Source: Terracidiphilus sp. (GTDB taxonomy: Bacteria; Acidobacteriota; Terriglobia; Terriglobales; Acidobacteriaceae). Taken from it: a DNA stretch of 64,000 nucleotides. This document shows, piece after piece, positions 23,548 to 28,740 of this stretch; within the stretch, counting starts at the first letter, position 1; each line of letters begins with the position of its first letter. Below the pieces are notes generated by a model. It saw nothing but the letters and a program-made list of their open reading frames with translations. It had not been told where the DNA came from and did not search any database. Location of the stretch: positions 16,641-80,640 of the forward strand of contig DASZRQ010000143.1 in the NCBI GenBank assembly GCA_035549115.1, in the 5' to 3' direction. The position numbers and the translations under genes were made by a program.

Positions 23548-24975
23548 TTAGGGCTTTTCTCCGGGGCCAAACTGTGTCCACGGCCCGGCCTTCATGTCGC
23601 GCAGCACCGGCTTCAGGTAGTCGTACTGCGGATGCGCCGCCAGAAACGGCTTCACCAGGAAATCTTCGCCGCAGGGATGGCCCGCCCGCGCGATCATCTC
23701 CAGATGCTCGGCAAGCACGGAGTCCGTCACCTTGCCGGTCACCGCGCCCTCAGGCGCATACGGCCCCTCATCCCACTCCGGCACGCCCCGCGGATCGCGG
23801 TCCACGTGCCCGCAGAGCGACCGCGAGTCGGCATTCACCTTCCCCGTATAGCTGTCCGTGTGATCGGCCAGAAACATCTCCGCCATCGACACGTCGATAT
23901 GCCCCTTCGACGAGGCCATCTTGTCTTCCCACGTCACGCGCCGCGCGTTCGGTGAACTGGCCAGGTTCGTCGGATCGAAGCCATCCGTCTCGTTCTTGAT
24001 CAGCGCCCGGTCCCGCGCAAAATTCGAGCTGATAAAGTAGCCGTCCTTTGAGCGCCACACCGGCGTGTTCTTCAGGCCCAGCTCCAGGTACGCAATCTCG
24101 CCTGTCCTGCGGTCGCCGATCAGCCAGTCGTTCGCGTAGCCGCCGTTGTTGCCTTCCTTCATCAGGGCAATGTACTCGTCAATCGTGCTCGCATACTGCA
24201 TGGCCTTGCGTGAGCGCACAAACTCGGGAATGCCGTTCGGATTCCACCCCTCGAACTGCGTGATCGTCGTCTCCGTGATCATCAGGCCGGCATCGTTCAT
24301 GCCAAAGTCGTCCTCGCTGGTAATCACGCCCGGCTCGCCGTCCATCACCATGCGGTGCCCGTGCTCCGGCTTGATGTCGAAGATGATCGTCCAGCGCTCG
24401 CCGTCGGCATAGCCTGACCAGTTGCTGTGGCCCATCACAATGCGCCCGTCTTTGGTATAGCTGCCCGTCGCAATAAACGCCGAGCAGCGCCCCTCCGGCC
24501 GAATCGCCGGCGCATTGGCGGCGTGCTCATGCTTGTCGAGCCATGGCACGTAATACTCCGGCAGCTCGATGTCGCCGTTCAGCGCCACAATGTCCCACAC
24601 ATCCAGCTTTACGCCCCGCGACTGTACCCCCTTTGCAATGCCCGCGAGCTCCTGCTGATACTCGGTTTCGATATGTGGCCAGAACATCGTGCGCCCTGCC
24701 TCGCGATAGAACTTCCAGTCGCGGTGCGTCGAGTGCAGCGTCTCGATCTTCGCCACGCGGATCATGTCCGCGATCTCCGGCGCCAGCAGGCGTCCGTGCT
24801 GGTAGCCGATCTCGGCGGGCGAGCCCTCCAGGTGCACATAGGTCCAGCCGCCCCGCTCAAAGCGGTAGGCTGGTCCTTCGCTGGTGACTGTTTTGGGGGC
24901 TTTGGCGCAGGCTGGCAGCGCGCCGGCGGCGAGCAGAAAGCAGGCCAGAAGTGCACGGGAACGTGCAGACACCAT
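23548..24975 (-). CDS. Secreted Ntn-hydrolase, peptidase C45/phospholipase-B-like
   Basis: Signal peptide; LEGSPAEIGYQHG, autocleavage-type GRCSAFIAT, GHSNW, GMNDAGLMITET, NNGGYANDWLIGD. Start 24975 or 25005. Confidence 0.8.
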   Translation of the reverse strand: MVSARSRALLACFLLAAGALPACAKAPKTVTSEGPAYRFERGGWTYVHLEGSPAEIGYQHGRLLAPEIADMIRVAKIETLHSTHRDWKFYREAGRTMFWPHIETEYQQELAGIAKGVQSRGVKLDVWDIVALNGDIELPEYYVPWLDKHEHAANAPAIRPEGRCSAFIATGSYTKDGRIVMGHSNWSGYADGERWTIIFDIKPEHGHRMVMDGEPGVITSEDDFGMNDAGLMITETTITQFEGWNPNGIPEFVRSRKAMQYASTIDEYIALMKEGNNGGYANDWLIGDRRTGEIAYLELGLKNTPVWRSKDGYFISSNFARDRALIKNETDGFDPTNLASSPNARRVTWEDKMASSKGHIDVSMAEMFLADHTDSYTGKVNADSRSLCGHVDRDPRGVPEWDEGPYAPEGAVTGKVTDSVLAEHLEMIARAGHPCGEDFLVKPFLAAHPQYDYLKPVLRDMKAGPWTQFGPGEKP

Positions 24976-25052
24976 CAGAAAAATCCTCCGGATTTCCCTG
25001 AACATATCACGCTGCGGCTCCTTGCGGGAGCCGTCCCTGCGTGATCGGCGCG

Positions 25053-26990
25053 TCAGCGCTTCTTCTTGGCCTTGCCTGCTGGTTTCTTCGCCGCGGGCTT
25101 TGCCGGTTTGGCTGCCTTCTTGGCCGGCTTCGGCACTGGCTTCTTCTTCGCAGGCGGCTTGGGTGCTGGCTTGGCCTTCGGCGCGGGTTTCGCCGGAGCC
25201 TTTGCCGCCGCCTTTTTCGCTGCCGGCTTGGCAGGTGCGGCCTTCTTCACCGGCGCCGCCTTTTTCGCAGCCGGCTTCACCGGCGTCTTCACTGCGGGCT
25301 TGGGTTCCGGCTTGGCAGGAGCTTTCGCCGCGGGAGCCGCCTTCTTCGGTTCCTTGGCTGCCGGGGTTGTGGCTGCAGGGGCCGCGGCCGGCGGAGCTGC
25401 TTTCGCCGCGGCCTTCGGCGCGGGAGCAGCAGTCTTCGCGGGAGCCTTGGACGCAGCTTCCTTCTTGCCGCGTTTGGCCGGGGCAGGCGCTTCTTCCTCG
25501 TCTTCGCCCTCGTCCGCCTCTTCCTCGTCGGCGCCCTCATCGTCCAGACCATCCTTGGGCAGTCCGAGGTCCATCTCTTCGTCGTCGCCGCCCATGTCGT
25601 CCAGGTCGGCATCGCCCGCGTCCTCCGGCTCATCCTCGTCGTCGAACGAGCGCTCCTTGATCTTCTCCACGCTCCGCTTGGCCCGCGAGCGCTTGATGGT
25701 GATCTGCGGAGGCGGCGCGGGCGGCGAGAACGGCTCCAGAAACGCCTTCATCTCTTCCGGCGTCGTCAGTTTGCCGTCGATCAACTGCAAAAAGAGCTGG
25801 TGCAGCAGATCGTTATAGGTGGGCAGCTCCGGCGTAATCCGCATCTCCTGCATCAGGGCATGCGGAATCTTCTGCTTCGCCTCCGGCCACACCTTCAGGA
25901 ACTGCTCATAGCGGTCCTTCACGGTCGCCGCATTGCTGGTAAAGCCCAGCCACAGAACCGCTTCCGGATCATAGCTGGTGAAGAGCTTGAAGCTGGCCGA
26001 AGGCACCTGATTCTCCTTCGCCAGCAGCACCTTCTGGAAGCTCGACGCAATCGCATCCAGGCTGTTCCACTCCTCCACAAACCCCGGACGCACCAGCGCC
26101 TTCTTGAGCGCGGTCAGGTCCTTGGGCGCCAGCTTCGCTGTCAACAGTTGCATCTGCGCCGCGGACATGTCCGGATGCACGCCCTGCATTAGCAGCTCGA
26201 CGGCAAGATCGTGCAAAGCCTTGAGCTTGTTCTCGTCCGCCTTGGCTGAGGTCCATGCCGGGAACATCACCTTCATCCAGCCATCGGCCTCCAGCGCGCG
26301 CAGCACCTTCAGGCCGTCGTCCTCATGGCCAATCTGCTCCAGCTCGTAGCTGCGCTCATGCGCGGAGAGAGCCGAAATCACGCCCTCCTCGCGGGCATTG
26401 TCATACCGCGTCTGCGTGCGCGGATCGAGGTCCCAGCCCAGGCGCGCCTTGTAGCGGGTCGCGCGAATCAGCAGCGCCGGCTCTTCCAGAAATCCGTAGT
26501 TCGAAACCAGCCGCAGGGTGCGCGCCTCAATATCGGCCGCGCCGTTCAGCGGGTCCATCAGCAGCCCATACGATCCCTCGTTGAGCGAGATGGCCATTGC
26601 GTTCGCGGTAAAGTCGCGGCGGCGCAGGTCCTCCTGAATCGAAGCGGGATGGTAGACCGGCTTACCCGGCTTGGGATACTCGGTACGGTGCGTGCTGACC
26701 AGGTCCACCCGGACCGTGCCCGGAAAGCAGAGATACAGCGTGTGCGAAGCCTCGTCCTCACCCCAGACCTTGCCTCCGGCGCGCTCCACCGGCTTCTTGA
26801 GTTTGAGCGCGTTGCCATGGACGGCAACTTCGAGGTCGCGGACAGCATGGCCGCTGGTCAGGTCGCGGACGGCATCGCCGGTGAGAAACAGGATGATTCC
26901 GGCATCGCGGGCCACGTCGCGGAGCTGGCGCAGGGCATGTTGCTGGTCGGCAGACAGCCGGTTCTCAAGAAGGTAAATGTAGTCGGGCAT
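25053..26990 (-). CDS. CCA/poly(A)-polymerase-like nucleotidyltransferase with acidic segment and Lys/Ala/Pro-rich C-terminal tail
   Basis: TGDAVRD...RDLEV, EDLRRRDFTANAMA, LMDPLNG..DI, FLEEPALLIRATRY; start re-picked at ATG 26990. Confidence 0.85.
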   Translation of the reverse strand: MPDYIYLLENRLSADQQHALRQLRDVARDAGIILFLTGDAVRDLTSGHAVRDLEVAVHGNALKLKKPVERAGGKVWGEDEASHTLYLCFPGTVRVDLVSTHRTEYPKPGKPVYHPASIQEDLRRRDFTANAMAISLNEGSYGLLMDPLNGAADIEARTLRLVSNYGFLEEPALLIRATRYKARLGWDLDPRTQTRYDNAREEGVISALSAHERSYELEQIGHEDDGLKVLRALEADGWMKVMFPAWTSAKADENKLKALHDLAVELLMQGVHPDMSAAQMQLLTAKLAPKDLTALKKALVRPGFVEEWNSLDAIASSFQKVLLAKENQVPSASFKLFTSYDPEAVLWLGFTSNAATVKDRYEQFLKVWPEAKQKIPHALMQEMRITPELPTYNDLLHQLFLQLIDGKLTTPEEMKAFLEPFSPPAPPPQITIKRSRAKRSVEKIKERSFDDEDEPEDAGDADLDDMGGDDEEMDLGLPKDGLDDEGADEEEADEGEDEEEAPAPAKRGKKEAASKAPAKTAAPAPKAAAKAAPPAAAPAATTPAAKEPKKAAPAAKAPAKPEPKPAVKTPVKPAAKKAAPVKKAAPAKPAAKKAAAKAPAKPAPKAKPAPKPPAKKKPVPKPAKKAAKPAKPAAKKPAGKAKKKR

Positions 26991-27178
26991 CGGTCCCCTG
27001 CTCCCATCGTCCTCTAACCGCCCCAAGTCGCTGATGTGCTTACGCTTAGGCTGCTTGCAGGCAGAGGTTGCAAACCAGTACCTTAACATAATTTCAATAG
27101 GTTGGCTAGAGCGGACTGCACCGGAAATGCTGCTTTTGCCCTCGCGTCCGCCGCCCCGCCGTGCGACAATCCCAACCA

Positions 27179-27679
27179 ATGGCCTCTTCGCGTAAACCCG
27201 TGATTGTGCGGAAGTTCAGCCGCGACTGGGTGGCTGGCTATGCCGGGGCTGCCATTGACCCGAAGGCAACGGCCCTTGAAATCCTCGATCCCGGCGGCAA
27301 GGTCGTCGCCATCCCCTGGGATGCCATTAAGTGGATGTGTTATGTGCGGGATATCCCCGCCGGCGAACAGAACAATCCAGAACGCCTTCTGCAAAAACGT
27401 TTTACCGTGCGCCCCCGCGCCGCCGGCCTCTGGCTGCGCATGACCCTCGCCGACGGCGACGAACTGGAAGGCCTCGCCGCCAACGACCGCTCCCTCATCG
27501 ACGGCGCTGGCCTCCTGCTCACCCCGCCCGACACCCGCTCCAATACCCAGCGCATCTATGTGCCCCGGCAGGCCATCCAGATCCTTGAGGTCGTCAGCCT
27601 CATCGGCGCTGCCGCCCGCAAGCGCGCCGCATCCACGCCTCAGCCAGAACTCTTCCCCCAGGAGCAGGAACCCGAGTAG
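27179..27679 (+). CDS. Conserved hypothetical cytoplasmic protein (DUF6982-like, from memory)
   Basis: ATG 27179 after TGnGACAAT; GC3-rich; PRAAGLWLRMTLADGDELEG, PPDTRSNTQRIYVP; directly upstream of lpxD. Confidence 0.7.
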   Translation: MASSRKPVIVRKFSRDWVAGYAGAAIDPKATALEILDPGGKVVAIPWDAIKWMCYVRDIPAGEQNNPERLLQKRFTVRPRAAGLWLRMTLADGDELEGLAANDRSLIDGAGLLLTPPDTRSNTQRIYVPRQAIQILEVVSLIGAAARKRAASTPQPELFPQEQEPE

Positions 27680-27702: not shown

Positions 27703-28740
27703 ATGAAACTTGGCGAGCTGGCAAGCCGGTTAGGCGCGGAGCTGCGCGGCGACGCGGAGCTGGAAATTACTGGTGTCAAAGGGATTGAGGAAGCCGGACC
27801 CACCGAGATCACCTTCGTCGCCAACCCCAGATACTGCGGCCTGGCCAGAACCACCCATGCCGCGGCGGTCGTCGTCGAGCCCGAGTTCCCTGAACTCTCC
27901 GCCGCCACCCTGCGCATCAAGAACCCCTACCACGCCTTCTCCCGCGCCCTCGGCATCTTCTACCAGCCGCCGGCCTATCCCCCCGGCATTCACTCCACTG
28001 CAGTCATCGATCCCACCGCGGAGATCGGCACAGGGGCGCACATCGGCGCTTACGTCGTCGTCGGTCCCGGAGTCAAGCTCGGCCCGCATGCCACCCTGCT
28101 GCCTCATGTCGTTCTCTACCCCGGCATGCAGGCTGGCAGCCATCTCTTCGCCCATGCCCATGCCGTCGTCCGCGAGGACTGCATCCTGGGCGACCACGTC
28201 ACCCTGGAAAACGGCGCCATCGTCGGCGCGGATGGCTTCGGCTTCTCCAAGGACGAGCACGGCCACTGGACCAAGATTCCCCAGTCCGGTCCGGTGCGCC
28301 TCGGCGACCGCGTCGACGTGCAGGCCAATGCCTGCGTGGACCGCGCCACCATCGGAGCCACGGAGATCGGCGCGGGCACCAAGATCGACAACCTCGTTCA
28401 GGTCGGCCACGGCTCCAGGGTCGGCGAGAACACGCTGCTCTGCGCCCAGACCGGCCTCGCAGGCTCATCGGTGGTCGGCAACAACGTCATCCTTGCCGGG
28501 CAAACAGGCATCGCCGGCCACTGTACCGTGGGCGATGGCGTCATACTCACCGCGCAATCCGCCGTGAGCCACGACGTGCCGCCCGGCAAGATGATCTCCG
28601 GCTCGCCCGGCTTCGACAACCGCATCTGGCTGCGCGCCGTCGCGCTCTTCCAGCGCCTGCCGGAGCTCGCCCGTCGTCTCGACCGCGTCGAAAAAGCCGT
28701 CGCCAAAACCGCCACAACCGAAGATGGAGAGCGCGCATGA
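27703..28740 (+). CDS. lpxD: UDP-3-O-(3-hydroxyacyl)glucosamine N-acyltransferase
   Basis: ITFVANPRY, hexapeptide repeats, IVGADGFGF, KIPQSG, KIDNLVQVGH, QTGLAGS. Confidence 0.97.
   Translation: MKLGELASRLGAELRGDAELEITGVKGIEEAGPTEITFVANPRYCGLARTTHAAAVVVEPEFPELSAATLRIKNPYHAFSRALGIFYQPPAYPPGIHSTAVIDPTAEIGTGAHIGAYVVVGPGVKLGPHATLLPHVVLYPGMQAGSHLFAHAHAVVREDCILGDHVTLENGAIVGADGFGFSKDEHGHWTKIPQSGPVRLGDRVDVQANACVDRATIGATEIGAGTKIDNLVQVGHGSRVGENTLLCAQTGLAGSSVVGNNVILAGQTGIAGHCTVGDGVILTAQSAVSHDVPPGKMISGSPGFDNRIWLRAVALFQRLPELARRLDRVEKAVAKTATTEDGERA

What the first reader, a model, noticed from the sequence alone, without database searches (positions are those of the whole stretch)
26400..26990. CCA-enzyme homologue with altered catalytic and nucleotide-selection motifs
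Seen: motif A reads LTGDAVRD...RDLEV where class II nucleotidyltransferases have VGGxVRD...DxD. RRDFTANAM is intact, but the templating motif EDxxR reads EEPAL. Known: DxD binds the catalytic metals and EDxxR reads CTP/ATP in CCA-, CC- and A-adding enzymes. Inference: changes at three key positions suggest either a catalytically dead RNA-binding scaffold or an enzyme with a different nucleotide or substrate specificity.
Basis: partly seen in the sequence, partly recalled or inferred. Interest (0 to 1): 0.7.

Follow-up and report, generated by a model that had tools for sequence, protein, structure and literature searches.

The report
Tailed CCA-enzyme paralogue with eroded active site
This acidobacterial gene is a second copy of the enzyme family that repairs tRNA ends; it carries a histone-like tail and, in this genus only, has lost residues known to be needed for adding nucleotides while staying strongly conserved, so it probably now works as an RNA-binding protein rather than as an enzyme.

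Summary
The 645-aa product of window 25053-26990 (-) is a class II nucleotidyltransferase. It reads GD for GG, DLE for DxD and EEPAL for EDxxR, while RRD and motif C are intact.

It is not the organism's CCA enzyme. A canonical CCA enzyme with an HD domain lies on another contig, and all 35 tRNA genes found already encode CCA.

The gene belongs to a paralogue family found beside the canonical enzyme across the Acidobacteriaceae. The family descends from the A-adding branch. It has a 425-aa head-neck-body-tail core, a proline linker and an Ala/Lys/Pro tail.

In 61 other genera the catalytic motifs are canonical and nearly invariant. Only this genus-level clade (125 sequences) carries G39D, D54E, E96D and R173L.

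Within that clade dN/dS is 0.05-0.19, yet the first metal ligand drifts (D/E/G), the second is sometimes Q, and the templating positions vary.

Best reading (about 50%): a non-catalytic RNA/tRNA-binding derivative. Main rival (about 30%): a remodelled, still active enzyme without C/A templating. Strain-specific decay is excluded. It is a new variant of a known kind, of moderate interest.

The parts
25053..26990 (-). CDS of the tailed class II nucleotidyltransferase paralogue (645 aa, stop included)
   Evidence: ORF list and start mapping. The N-terminus MPDYIYLLENRL is conserved in all homologues.
26511..26990 (-). Head (catalytic) domain, residues 1-160
   Evidence: Pfam PF01743, residues 34-160. 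AF2 model with pLDDT 93.
26862..26885 (-). Motif A first half, LTGDAVRD (G39D; canonical GGxVRD)
   Evidence: D in 122/125 clade sequences; G in 61/61 other genera.
26826..26840 (-). Motif A metal ligands, RDLEV (D52, E54; canonical DxD)
   Evidence: E54 is fixed in the clade. D52 drifts to E (13 sequences) or G (2).
26703..26711 (-). BxA motif R94-V95-D96 upstream of the flexible loop (E96D in this clade)
   Evidence: Type II divergence analysis. The motif is defined in PMC2910056.
26595..26621 (-). Motif B, RRDFTANAM (ribose-recognition RRD), intact
   Evidence: R125 and D126 are invariant.
26526..26555 (-). Motif C, DPLNGAADIE, intact
   Evidence: D146, P147, N149, G150 and D153 are invariant.
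26472..26486 (-). Motif D, EEPAL (templating R173 replaced by L; position 170 variable)
25716..26510 (-). Neck, body and tail domains (residues 161-425), all-helical
   Evidence: AF2 model. Foldseek aligns about 425 columns to the full-length T. maritima CCA enzyme and the A. aeolicus A-adding enzyme.
25476..25655 (-). Acidic block after the PPAPPPQ linker (32 D/E in 60 residues; net charge of residues 426-505 is -24)
   Evidence: Present in this genus and its 61-65%-identical sister genera, and absent from most other genera.
25056..25475 (-). Histone-H1-like Ala/Lys/Pro tail (140 aa; A 52, K 41, P 31; net charge +40)
   Evidence: A basic tail is present in all orthologues.
27161..27679 (+). 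Divergently transcribed DUF6982 gene, a conserved neighbour
   Evidence: Pfam PF22478. Adjacent to the paralogue in 15 of 16 family genomes. The model shows tandem small beta-barrels.

Best explanation
The gene encodes a derivative of an A-adding-type class II tRNA nucleotidyltransferase. In this genus it has given up templated nucleotide addition. It is kept for a non-catalytic job, most likely binding tRNA or another structured RNA.

Shown:
- The organism has a separate canonical CCA enzyme with an HD domain, and its tRNA genes encode CCA.
- The paralogue family is present beside the canonical enzyme throughout the Acidobacteriaceae, with canonical motifs.
- In this genus four active-site residues were replaced: G39D at the triphosphate-binding GG, D54E at a metal ligand, E96D in the BxA motif, and R173L at the base template.
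- After that, the first metal ligand and the template positions became among the most variable of the formerly conserved sites.
- The rest of the protein stays under purifying selection, including the RRD motif, motif C and the conserved body/tail positions.

Inferred:
- The retained head-neck-body-tail scaffold still docks an acceptor/T-arm-like helix, as its relatives do.
- The +40 Ala/Lys/Pro tail adds non-specific nucleic-acid affinity.
- The adjacent -24 acidic block tempers that affinity through an intramolecular contact.
- The cellular role (for example tRNA 3'-end binding or sequestration, or ribosome or nucleoid association) is not known.
For: Redundancy:
- The genome has two PolyA_pol genes.
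- The other one reads GGCVRD, DYD, a full flexible loop, RRDFTING and EDQLR, and has an HD domain.
- 35 of 35 tRNA genes encode CCA.

The family has canonical motifs elsewhere:
- 61 other genera read GG / RDLD / RRRDFT / [ED][ED]PxR.

The change targets the active site:
- Only 8 sites are fixed differently between the 125 clade sequences and the 61 other genera. Four of them are G39D, D54E, E96D and R173L.
- 73 of 87 highly conserved sites are retained.

Relaxation after the change:
- D52 is D in 107, E in 13 and G in 2 sequences.
- E54 is Q in 3 sequences.
- Position 170 is E, D, Q, N or A. Position 173 is L, F, I or V.
- These sites lie at the 93rd-99th percentile of within-clade entropy among formerly conserved sites.

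Purifying selection:
- dN/dS is 0.05-0.19 in both head and body.

Fold:
- The AF2 model has pLDDT 93. Its full length aligns to the T. maritima CCA and A. aeolicus A-adding structures.

Literature:
- In vivo selection on a randomised EDxxR never yields replacements of the templating Asp or Arg (PMC11784652).
- The Arg was lost independently in two other lineages of the paralogue, L050 and P0129. The canonical enzymes never show this.
Against: - The four replacements look coordinated rather than random. D54E and E96D swap side-chain lengths, and G39D adds a carboxylate, so three or four acidic residues still surround the metal site.
- The RRD motif, motif C and R176 stay invariant. A pure fossil site would not be expected to keep them.
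- D-x-E and E-x-D metal triads are active in other polymerase-beta-fold families (from general knowledge, not tested here).
- RNA binding by the core and tail is inferred from homology and composition only.
Confidence: 0.5

Rival explanations
1. Remodelled but active enzyme. The site keeps a metal centre (D/E52, E54, D96, plus the new D39) and the ribose-binding RRD. It has a hydrophobic base pocket without templating. It would therefore add nucleotides with a different or relaxed specificity, or carry out another reaction at an RNA 3' end.
For: - The four changes are each fixed in at least 92% of 125 sequences, and two form a length swap, D54E with E96D.
- RRD, motif C and R176 are invariant.
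- The sister sequence P0123 shows a stepwise path, with GD and ExE acquired before the Arg was lost.
- The motif EQPxL arose three times: in L050, in P0129 and in a subclade of this clade.
Against: - The first metal ligand is Gly in two cluster representatives, and the second is Gln in three, in otherwise intact proteins.
- Position 170 takes five different residues. A new specificity should fix it.
- An Asp at the triphosphate-binding GG position is unfavourable for NTP binding (inference).
Confidence: 0.3
2. An ordinary A-adding or CCA-repair enzyme, as currently annotated ('CCA tRNA nucleotidyltransferase'), whose substitutions are tolerated.
For: - The best NCBIfam and PDB matches are A-adding and CCA-adding enzymes.
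- The head/neck tree places the family next to the long A-adding-type enzymes of other Acidobacteriota.
- The flexible loop is present, with a motif A-to-B spacing like that of A-adding types.
Against: - The templating Arg is absent. Published selection never recovers Asp or Arg replacements, even for A-addition alone.
- Scores fall far below every equivalog cut-off, for example 104 bits against 1440.
- The partner enzyme is a full CCA type, not a loop-deleted CC type.
- tRNA genes encode CCA.
Confidence: 0.08
3. A gene in decay: a pseudogene in the making with no selected function.
For: - Catalytic sites drift.
- Three of 31 genus genomes show frame changes in this gene.
Against: - dN/dS is 0.05-0.19.
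- Intact 630-690-aa proteins were recovered in over 120 sequence clusters at 65-88% identity.
- The two frame changes inspected are single-T insertions in the same GGTGCT|TGC context. This points to systematic assembly error.
Confidence: 0.04
4. Chiefly a nucleoid or DNA-binding protein through its H1-like tail, with the nucleotidyltransferase core serving only as a folded carrier.
For: - The tail has 140 residues of Ala/Lys/Pro and a net charge of +40.
- Such tails are rare in this genome: three ORFs in all.
Against: - The core is more conserved than the tail, and its RNA-enzyme motifs B and C are invariant.
- One of the other two tailed proteins in the genome is RsfS, a ribosome-binding factor. 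That points to RNA rather than DNA.
Confidence: 0.08

Closest known systems
A-adding tRNA nucleotidyltransferase of Aquifex aeolicus (PDB 4wby, 1vfg, 4wc2; NCBIfam NF041569)
   Same: - Best sequence match: E about 1e-29 over residues 18-230, and 104 bits to NF041569.
- Same motif A-to-B spacing with a flexible loop.
- Same head-neck-body-tail fold.
   Different: - Lacks the roughly 450-aa N-terminal extension.
- Has GD, DxE and EExxL instead of GG, DxD and EDxxR.
- Carries an acidic block and an Ala/Lys/Pro tail.
- Its genomic partner is a full CCA enzyme, not a CC-adding enzyme.
Thermotoga maritima CCA-adding enzyme (PDB 3h37, 3h38, 5hc9)
   Same: - Top Foldseek match over about 425 columns.
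- 102 bits by sequence.
   Different: Same motif differences as for the A. aeolicus enzyme, and the T. maritima enzyme has no low-complexity tail.
Canonical-motif orthologues of the same tailed paralogue in other Acidobacteriaceae genera
   Same: - 41-65% identity over the whole 440-aa core.
- Same PPPP linker and basic tail.
- Same divergent DUF6982 neighbour.
   Different: - They keep GG, DLD, E96 and the templating Arg.
- Most lack the acidic block.
Nucleotidyltransferase-fold pseudoenzymes: Utp22 (CCA-enzyme homologue in ribosome biogenesis, PMC3794860) and OASL (PMC4446440)
   Same: A polymerase-beta-fold scaffold that has lost catalytic competence and is retained for RNA binding. For this protein that is a proposal, not a demonstration.
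   Different: - Those are eukaryotic and derive from class I or OAS lineages.
- This one is bacterial, class II and recent (genus level), with active relatives still extant.
- Membership cannot be claimed without biochemistry.
Bacterial poly(A) polymerase PcnB
   Same: Same superfamily (PF01743).
   Different: - The PAP signature [LIV][LIV]G[RK][RK]Fx[LIV]h[HQL][LIV] is absent.
- Only 38 bits to TIGR01942, against a cut-off of 306.

Membership tests
Class II nucleotidyltransferase superfamily (PolyA_pol, PF01743) | Head domain matches the Pfam model above its gathering score | tested here: met
   57.1 bits against a cut-off of 23, residues 34-160.
Class II nucleotidyltransferase superfamily (PolyA_pol, PF01743) | Elongated head-neck-body-tail fold | tested here: met
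   AF2 pLDDT 93.3. Foldseek E 2e-19 to 3h38 over 425 columns.
Catalytically competent class II CCA-/A-adding enzymes | Motif A GGxVRD ... DxD | tested here: not met
   The protein reads GDAVRD ... DLE.
Catalytically competent class II CCA-/A-adding enzymes | Motif B RRD (ribose recognition) | tested here: met
   RRRDFT. R125 and D126 are invariant in 122 sequences.
Catalytically competent class II CCA-/A-adding enzymes | Motif D template [ED]DxxR with an irreplaceable Asp and Arg | tested here: not met
   The protein reads EEPAL. Position 173 is L, F, I or V in all 125 clade sequences. The requirement comes from PMC11784652.
Catalytically competent class II CCA-/A-adding enzymes | Score above the NCBIfam equivalog cut-off | tested here: not met
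   Best hit is NF041569 at 104 bits against 1440. The CCA models score at most 69 bits against cut-offs of 290-624.
A-adding enzyme of a split CC + A system | Same genome holds a CC-adding enzyme with a deleted flexible loop | tested here: not met
   The partner enzyme has the full loop EVATFRSDGAYSDGRHPD and an HD domain. Loop-deleted partners occur only in other acidobacterial families.
A-adding enzyme / PAP | Downstream motif sRxxxExxxhh (versus ERxxxExxxhh in CC/CCA enzymes) | tested here: inconclusive
   Neither pattern matches. The protein reads HERSYELEQIG, with R-x-x-E spacing.
Bacterial poly(A) polymerase (PcnB) | Signature [LIV][LIV]G[RK][RK]Fx[LIV]h[HQL][LIV] between motif A and the loop | tested here: not met
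   The regular expression finds no match.
Pseudoenzyme (non-catalytic homologue kept by selection) | Essential catalytic residues missing or unconstrained while the protein is under purifying selection | tested here: met
Pseudoenzyme (non-catalytic homologue kept by selection) | Demonstrated lack of activity and a demonstrated non-catalytic function | not testable with these tools
   Needs biochemistry and genetics.

The most novel reading that the evidence does not exclude
The genus-specific site has four carboxylates (D39, D/E52, E54, D96), an intact ribose-binding RRD and a hydrophobic pocket in place of the C/A template. On this reading it is not dead. It has been rebuilt for a new function at RNA 3' ends, either a new reaction or reading the state of the tRNA CCA end without extending it. 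The acidic/basic bipolar tail would tether the protein to ribosomes or the nucleoid. The same kind of tail sits on RsfS in this genome.
Probability: 0.2. Interest if true: 0.75.

Novelty: new variant of a known kind. Interest (0 to 1): 0.5.

Why it matters
Class II tRNA nucleotidyltransferases are a textbook case of protein-templated nucleotide selection. Known natural variation covers CCA-, CC- and A-adding enzymes and poly(A) polymerases, and all of them keep GG, DxD and the D/R template.

This lineage offers two things. First, a whole bacterial family keeps a second, A-adding-derived paralogue fused to a histone-H1-like tail, and its role is unknown. Second, one genus gives a recent and well-sampled natural experiment. 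The catalytic and templating residues were replaced and then relaxed while the protein stayed under selection, and active relatives and intermediates are still available for comparison.

That makes the step from enzyme to RNA-binding pseudoenzyme, or to a new activity, directly testable with reversion mutants. It also warns that the current automatic name, 'CCA tRNA nucleotidyltransferase', is probably wrong for these proteins.

Tried and rejected
- **A-adding versus CCA motif.** The sRxxxExxxhh / ERxxxExxxhh discriminator gave no match in either form, so it is inconclusive.
- **Active-site geometry.** Model coordinates are not exposed in the Python box. Distances between D39, D52, E54 and D96 could not be measured.
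- **Required A-adder idea.** I considered that the paralogue might be the required A-adding partner of a CC-adding enzyme. I rejected this because the partner has a full flexible loop in this genus and in 15 other genera.
- **Acidic block timing.** I considered that the acidic block arose together with the catalytic changes. I rejected this because sister genera with canonical motifs already have it.
- **Frameshifted copies.** Three genus genomes have frame changes, which looked like real pseudogenes. The two inspected are T insertions in an identical sequence context, so they are likely assembly artefacts.
- **allo-tRNAs.** A link to the unusual acidobacterial allo-tRNAs (PMC5389517) has nothing to support it.
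- **DUF6982.** There was no significant PDB sequence match (best E 0.39) and no literature. Fold matches were only weak, to tandem Tudor and Sm-like barrels (E about 2e-3).
Full report
**1. Observation**

The minus-strand ORF 25053..27179 is open. The start that all homologues share is ATG 26990, giving MPDYIYLLENRL... and 645 residues.

| String | Window coordinates |
|---|---|
| LTGDAVRD | 26885-26862 |
| RDLEV | 26840-26826 |
| RRDFTANAM | 26621-26595 |
| EEPAL | 26486-26472 |

Pfam finds a PolyA_pol head domain at residues 34-160, with 57 bits against a cut-off of 23. NCBIfam's best model is the A-adding tRNA nucleotidyltransferase NF041569, at 104 bits against a cut-off of 1440. All CCA and PcnB models score lower.

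The nearest solved relatives by sequence are the Aquifex aeolicus A-adding enzyme (4wby/1vfg/4wbz, E about 1e-29) and the Thermotoga maritima CCA enzyme (3h37). In those alignments GD lies under GG, DLE under DVD/DID, RRDFTANAM under RRDFTINAM, and EEPAL under EDPVR/DDPTR.

**2. It is a second nucleotidyltransferase, not the cca gene**

The assembly is 3.66 Mb and 99% complete. It has two PolyA_pol genes.

The other gene, on contig C211, reads GGCVRD, DYD, a full flexible loop (EVATFRSDGAYSDGRHPD), RRDFTING and EDQLR, and it carries an HD domain. That is the make-up of a complete CCA-adding and repair enzyme.

All 35 tRNA genes that ARAGORN finds in the assembly already end in CCA. Nucleotide addition is therefore needed only for repair in this organism.

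**3. The family**

A search of 200 genomes of the phylum finds full-length (1-440) orthologues in all 16 genomes of the same taxonomic family, at 41-79% identity. One more lies in another family of the same class.

With the Pfam model, 61 of 61 genera of the family have PolyA_pol genes. Nearly all complete genomes have exactly two: a canonical enzyme of 450-520 aa and this longer paralogue. The same holds in 31 genomes of the window's own genus.

Source names on close homologues read Terracidiphilus sp.. The taxonomy copy resolves that name to Occallatibacter, Acidobacteriaceae.

All orthologues share:
- a core of about 425 aa;
- a proline run;
- a basic Ala/Lys/Pro tail, with K+R at 19-34%.

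An acidic block precedes the tail in this genus and in its 61-65%-identical sister genera, and in few others. In the window protein the acidic part has a net charge of -24 and the 140-aa tail a net charge of +40.

An AlphaFold model of the core is confident (pLDDT 93.3, pTM 0.86). It aligns over about 425 columns to the T. maritima CCA and A. aeolicus A-adding enzymes, including their tRNA complexes. The whole head-neck-body-tail architecture is therefore kept.

**4. Origin**

Other acidobacterial families carry two different enzymes:
- a long enzyme of 880-1060 aa, with canonical motifs and a motif A-to-B spacing of 87;
- a short enzyme of 470-550 aa, whose spacing is 14 residues shorter.

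That loop deletion is the published identity mark of CC-adding enzymes (PMC2910056). These families therefore have a split CC + A system.

In a head/neck tree the tailed paralogues form one group (support 0.95). They lie next to the long A-adding-type enzymes. The canonical HD enzymes and the short CC-type enzymes lie on the other side.

The paralogue is thus a descendant of the A-adding lineage. It lost the N-terminal extension and gained the tail. Its partner in this bacterial family is a full CCA enzyme in every genus examined, this one included. It is therefore not needed as an A-adder.

**5. The substitutions are specific to one genus-level clade**

In the representative genomes of 61 other genera the paralogue reads GG[AV][VI]RD, RDLD, RRRDFT, DPxNGxADIE and [ED][ED]PxR almost without exception.

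The four inspected genomes of the window's genus read GD or GS, D/E-x-E, and L in place of the templating Arg. So do 122 close homologues at 65% identity or more.

I compared 125 clade sequences with the 61 other genera:
- Only eight positions are fixed differently.
- Four of them are active-site residues: G39D, D54E, E96D (the acidic residue of the BxA motif in front of the flexible loop) and R173L.
- Of 87 positions conserved at 95% or more elsewhere, 73 are retained.

The E at the second EDxxR position is not special, because many canonical orthologues read EEPxR.

A tree built with the six sites masked shows the following:
- The clade is monophyletic.
- Its sister (P0123) has GD and ExE but keeps E96 and the Arg, so it is an intermediate.
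- The Arg was lost independently, each time giving EQPxL, in one sister genus (L050) and in one metagenomic lineage (P0129).
- One further lineage (P0130) reads DLN.

**6. Selection**

Pairwise dN/dS among the four genus genomes is 0.05-0.19 in both the head and the body. dS is high, so the values are approximate.

The states of the former catalytic positions within the clade are shown below.

| Position | States within the clade |
|---|---|
| 52 (first metal ligand) | D 107, E 13, G 2 |
| 54 (second metal ligand) | E 119, Q 3 |
| 39 | D 120, S 1, G 1 |
| 170 | E 96, D 16, Q 6, N 2, A 2 |
| 173 | L 112, F 5, I 4, V 1 |

Positions 52, 170 and 173 sit at the 95th, 99th and 93rd percentile of within-clade entropy among formerly conserved sites. 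RRD, motif C and R176 do not vary.

A Gly or Gln at a metal ligand, in otherwise intact and conserved proteins, argues that two-metal catalysis is not what selection maintains.

**7. Literature**

In a randomised-template selection on the human enzyme, replacements of the templating Asp and Arg were never recovered, even when only A-addition was selected (PMC11784652). With Leu at that position, ordinary A or CCA addition is unlikely.

Precedents for nucleotidyltransferase-fold proteins kept for RNA binding without catalysis are Utp22 (PMC3794860) and OASL (PMC4446440). I found no paper on this acidobacterial family. The search covers open-access text only.

**8. Reading**

| Reading | Confidence |
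|---|---|
| Non-catalytic RNA/tRNA-binding derivative | about 0.5 |
| Remodelled, still active site | about 0.3 |
| Ordinary A/CCA activity | 0.08 |
| Chiefly DNA binding through the tail | 0.08 |
| Decay | 0.04 |

The non-catalytic reading would bind RNA through the retained scaffold. The basic tail would add affinity, and the acidic block would modulate it.

The strongest argument for the remodelled-site rival is that the four changes look coordinated. D54E and E96D form a length swap, G39D adds a carboxylate, and RRD and motif C are untouched.

**9. Context and side observations**

A DUF6982 gene is transcribed divergently from the paralogue in 15 of 16 genomes of the family. Its model is a pair of small beta-barrels, with weak Tudor and Sm-like matches.

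In this genome only three ORFs carry an Ala/Lys/Pro tail of this kind:
- this protein;
- RsfS, the ribosome silencing factor;
- a small protein that is nothing but an acidic block plus such a tail.

Three genus genomes show frame changes in the paralogue. The two inspected are single-T insertions in the same GGTGCT|TGC context, which is probably a systematic assembly error.

Earlier first-reader notes in this scan describe the same gene's tail (e1-5271972) and the same family in two other genomes, one with ExE (e1-4193415, e1-4296283). This agrees with the variants I counted.

**10. Limits**

- There are no activity, binding or expression data.
- The clade sample is the 120 best hits out of more than 5,000.

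Noticed in passing
window 27161-27679 (+): A DUF6982 gene is transcribed divergently from the paralogue. It is adjacent in 15 of 16 genomes of the family. The AF2 model (pLDDT 79) is a tandem of small beta-barrels, with only weak Tudor and Sm/Hfq-like fold matches. The domain occurs in 73 of 201 genomes of the phylum and in none of 14 control genomes.
   Followed up: partly
genome contig C16 (+, from base 1381) and contig C33 (-, from base 28139), outside the window: Only two other ORFs in the assembly carry a similar Ala/Lys/Pro tail. One is RsfS, the ribosome silencing factor (Pfam 91 bits). The other is a protein of about 190 aa made only of an acidic block followed by such a tail, the same bipolar design as the paralogue's C-terminus.
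   Followed up: partly
L104 (G256:C5) and L105 (G274:C15), other genomes of the genus: The paralogue is frameshifted by a single extra T in the identical context GGTGCT|TGC, at two different places of the gene in two genomes. A third genome (G271) has two frame changes. This is probably a systematic long-read error, possibly at a methylation motif, but it is unproven.
   Followed up: partly
L088-L103 (other Acidobacteriota families): Many families of the phylum have a split system. It consists of a long (880-1060 aa) A-adding-type enzyme plus a short enzyme with a 14-residue shorter motif A-to-B spacing, which is the CC-adding-type loop deletion. The Acidobacteriaceae instead have a full CCA enzyme with an HD domain.
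   Followed up: partly
whole assembly G000: All 35 tRNA genes detected encode their 3' CCA. Only 35 were found in this 242-contig assembly.
   Followed up: yes
window 23548-25005 (-): The gene downstream of the paralogue encodes a secreted phospholipase-B-like protein (Pfam PF04916, 69 bits). It is conserved next to the paralogue in one genome of the genus (L004) and was not found in the other loci inspected.
   Followed up: no
L003 (G032), orthologue in the same genus: Motif B reads HHRDF instead of RRRDF in this genome, which is a further departure in a ribose/triphosphate-contacting motif. DUF6982 is not adjacent here.
   Followed up: no
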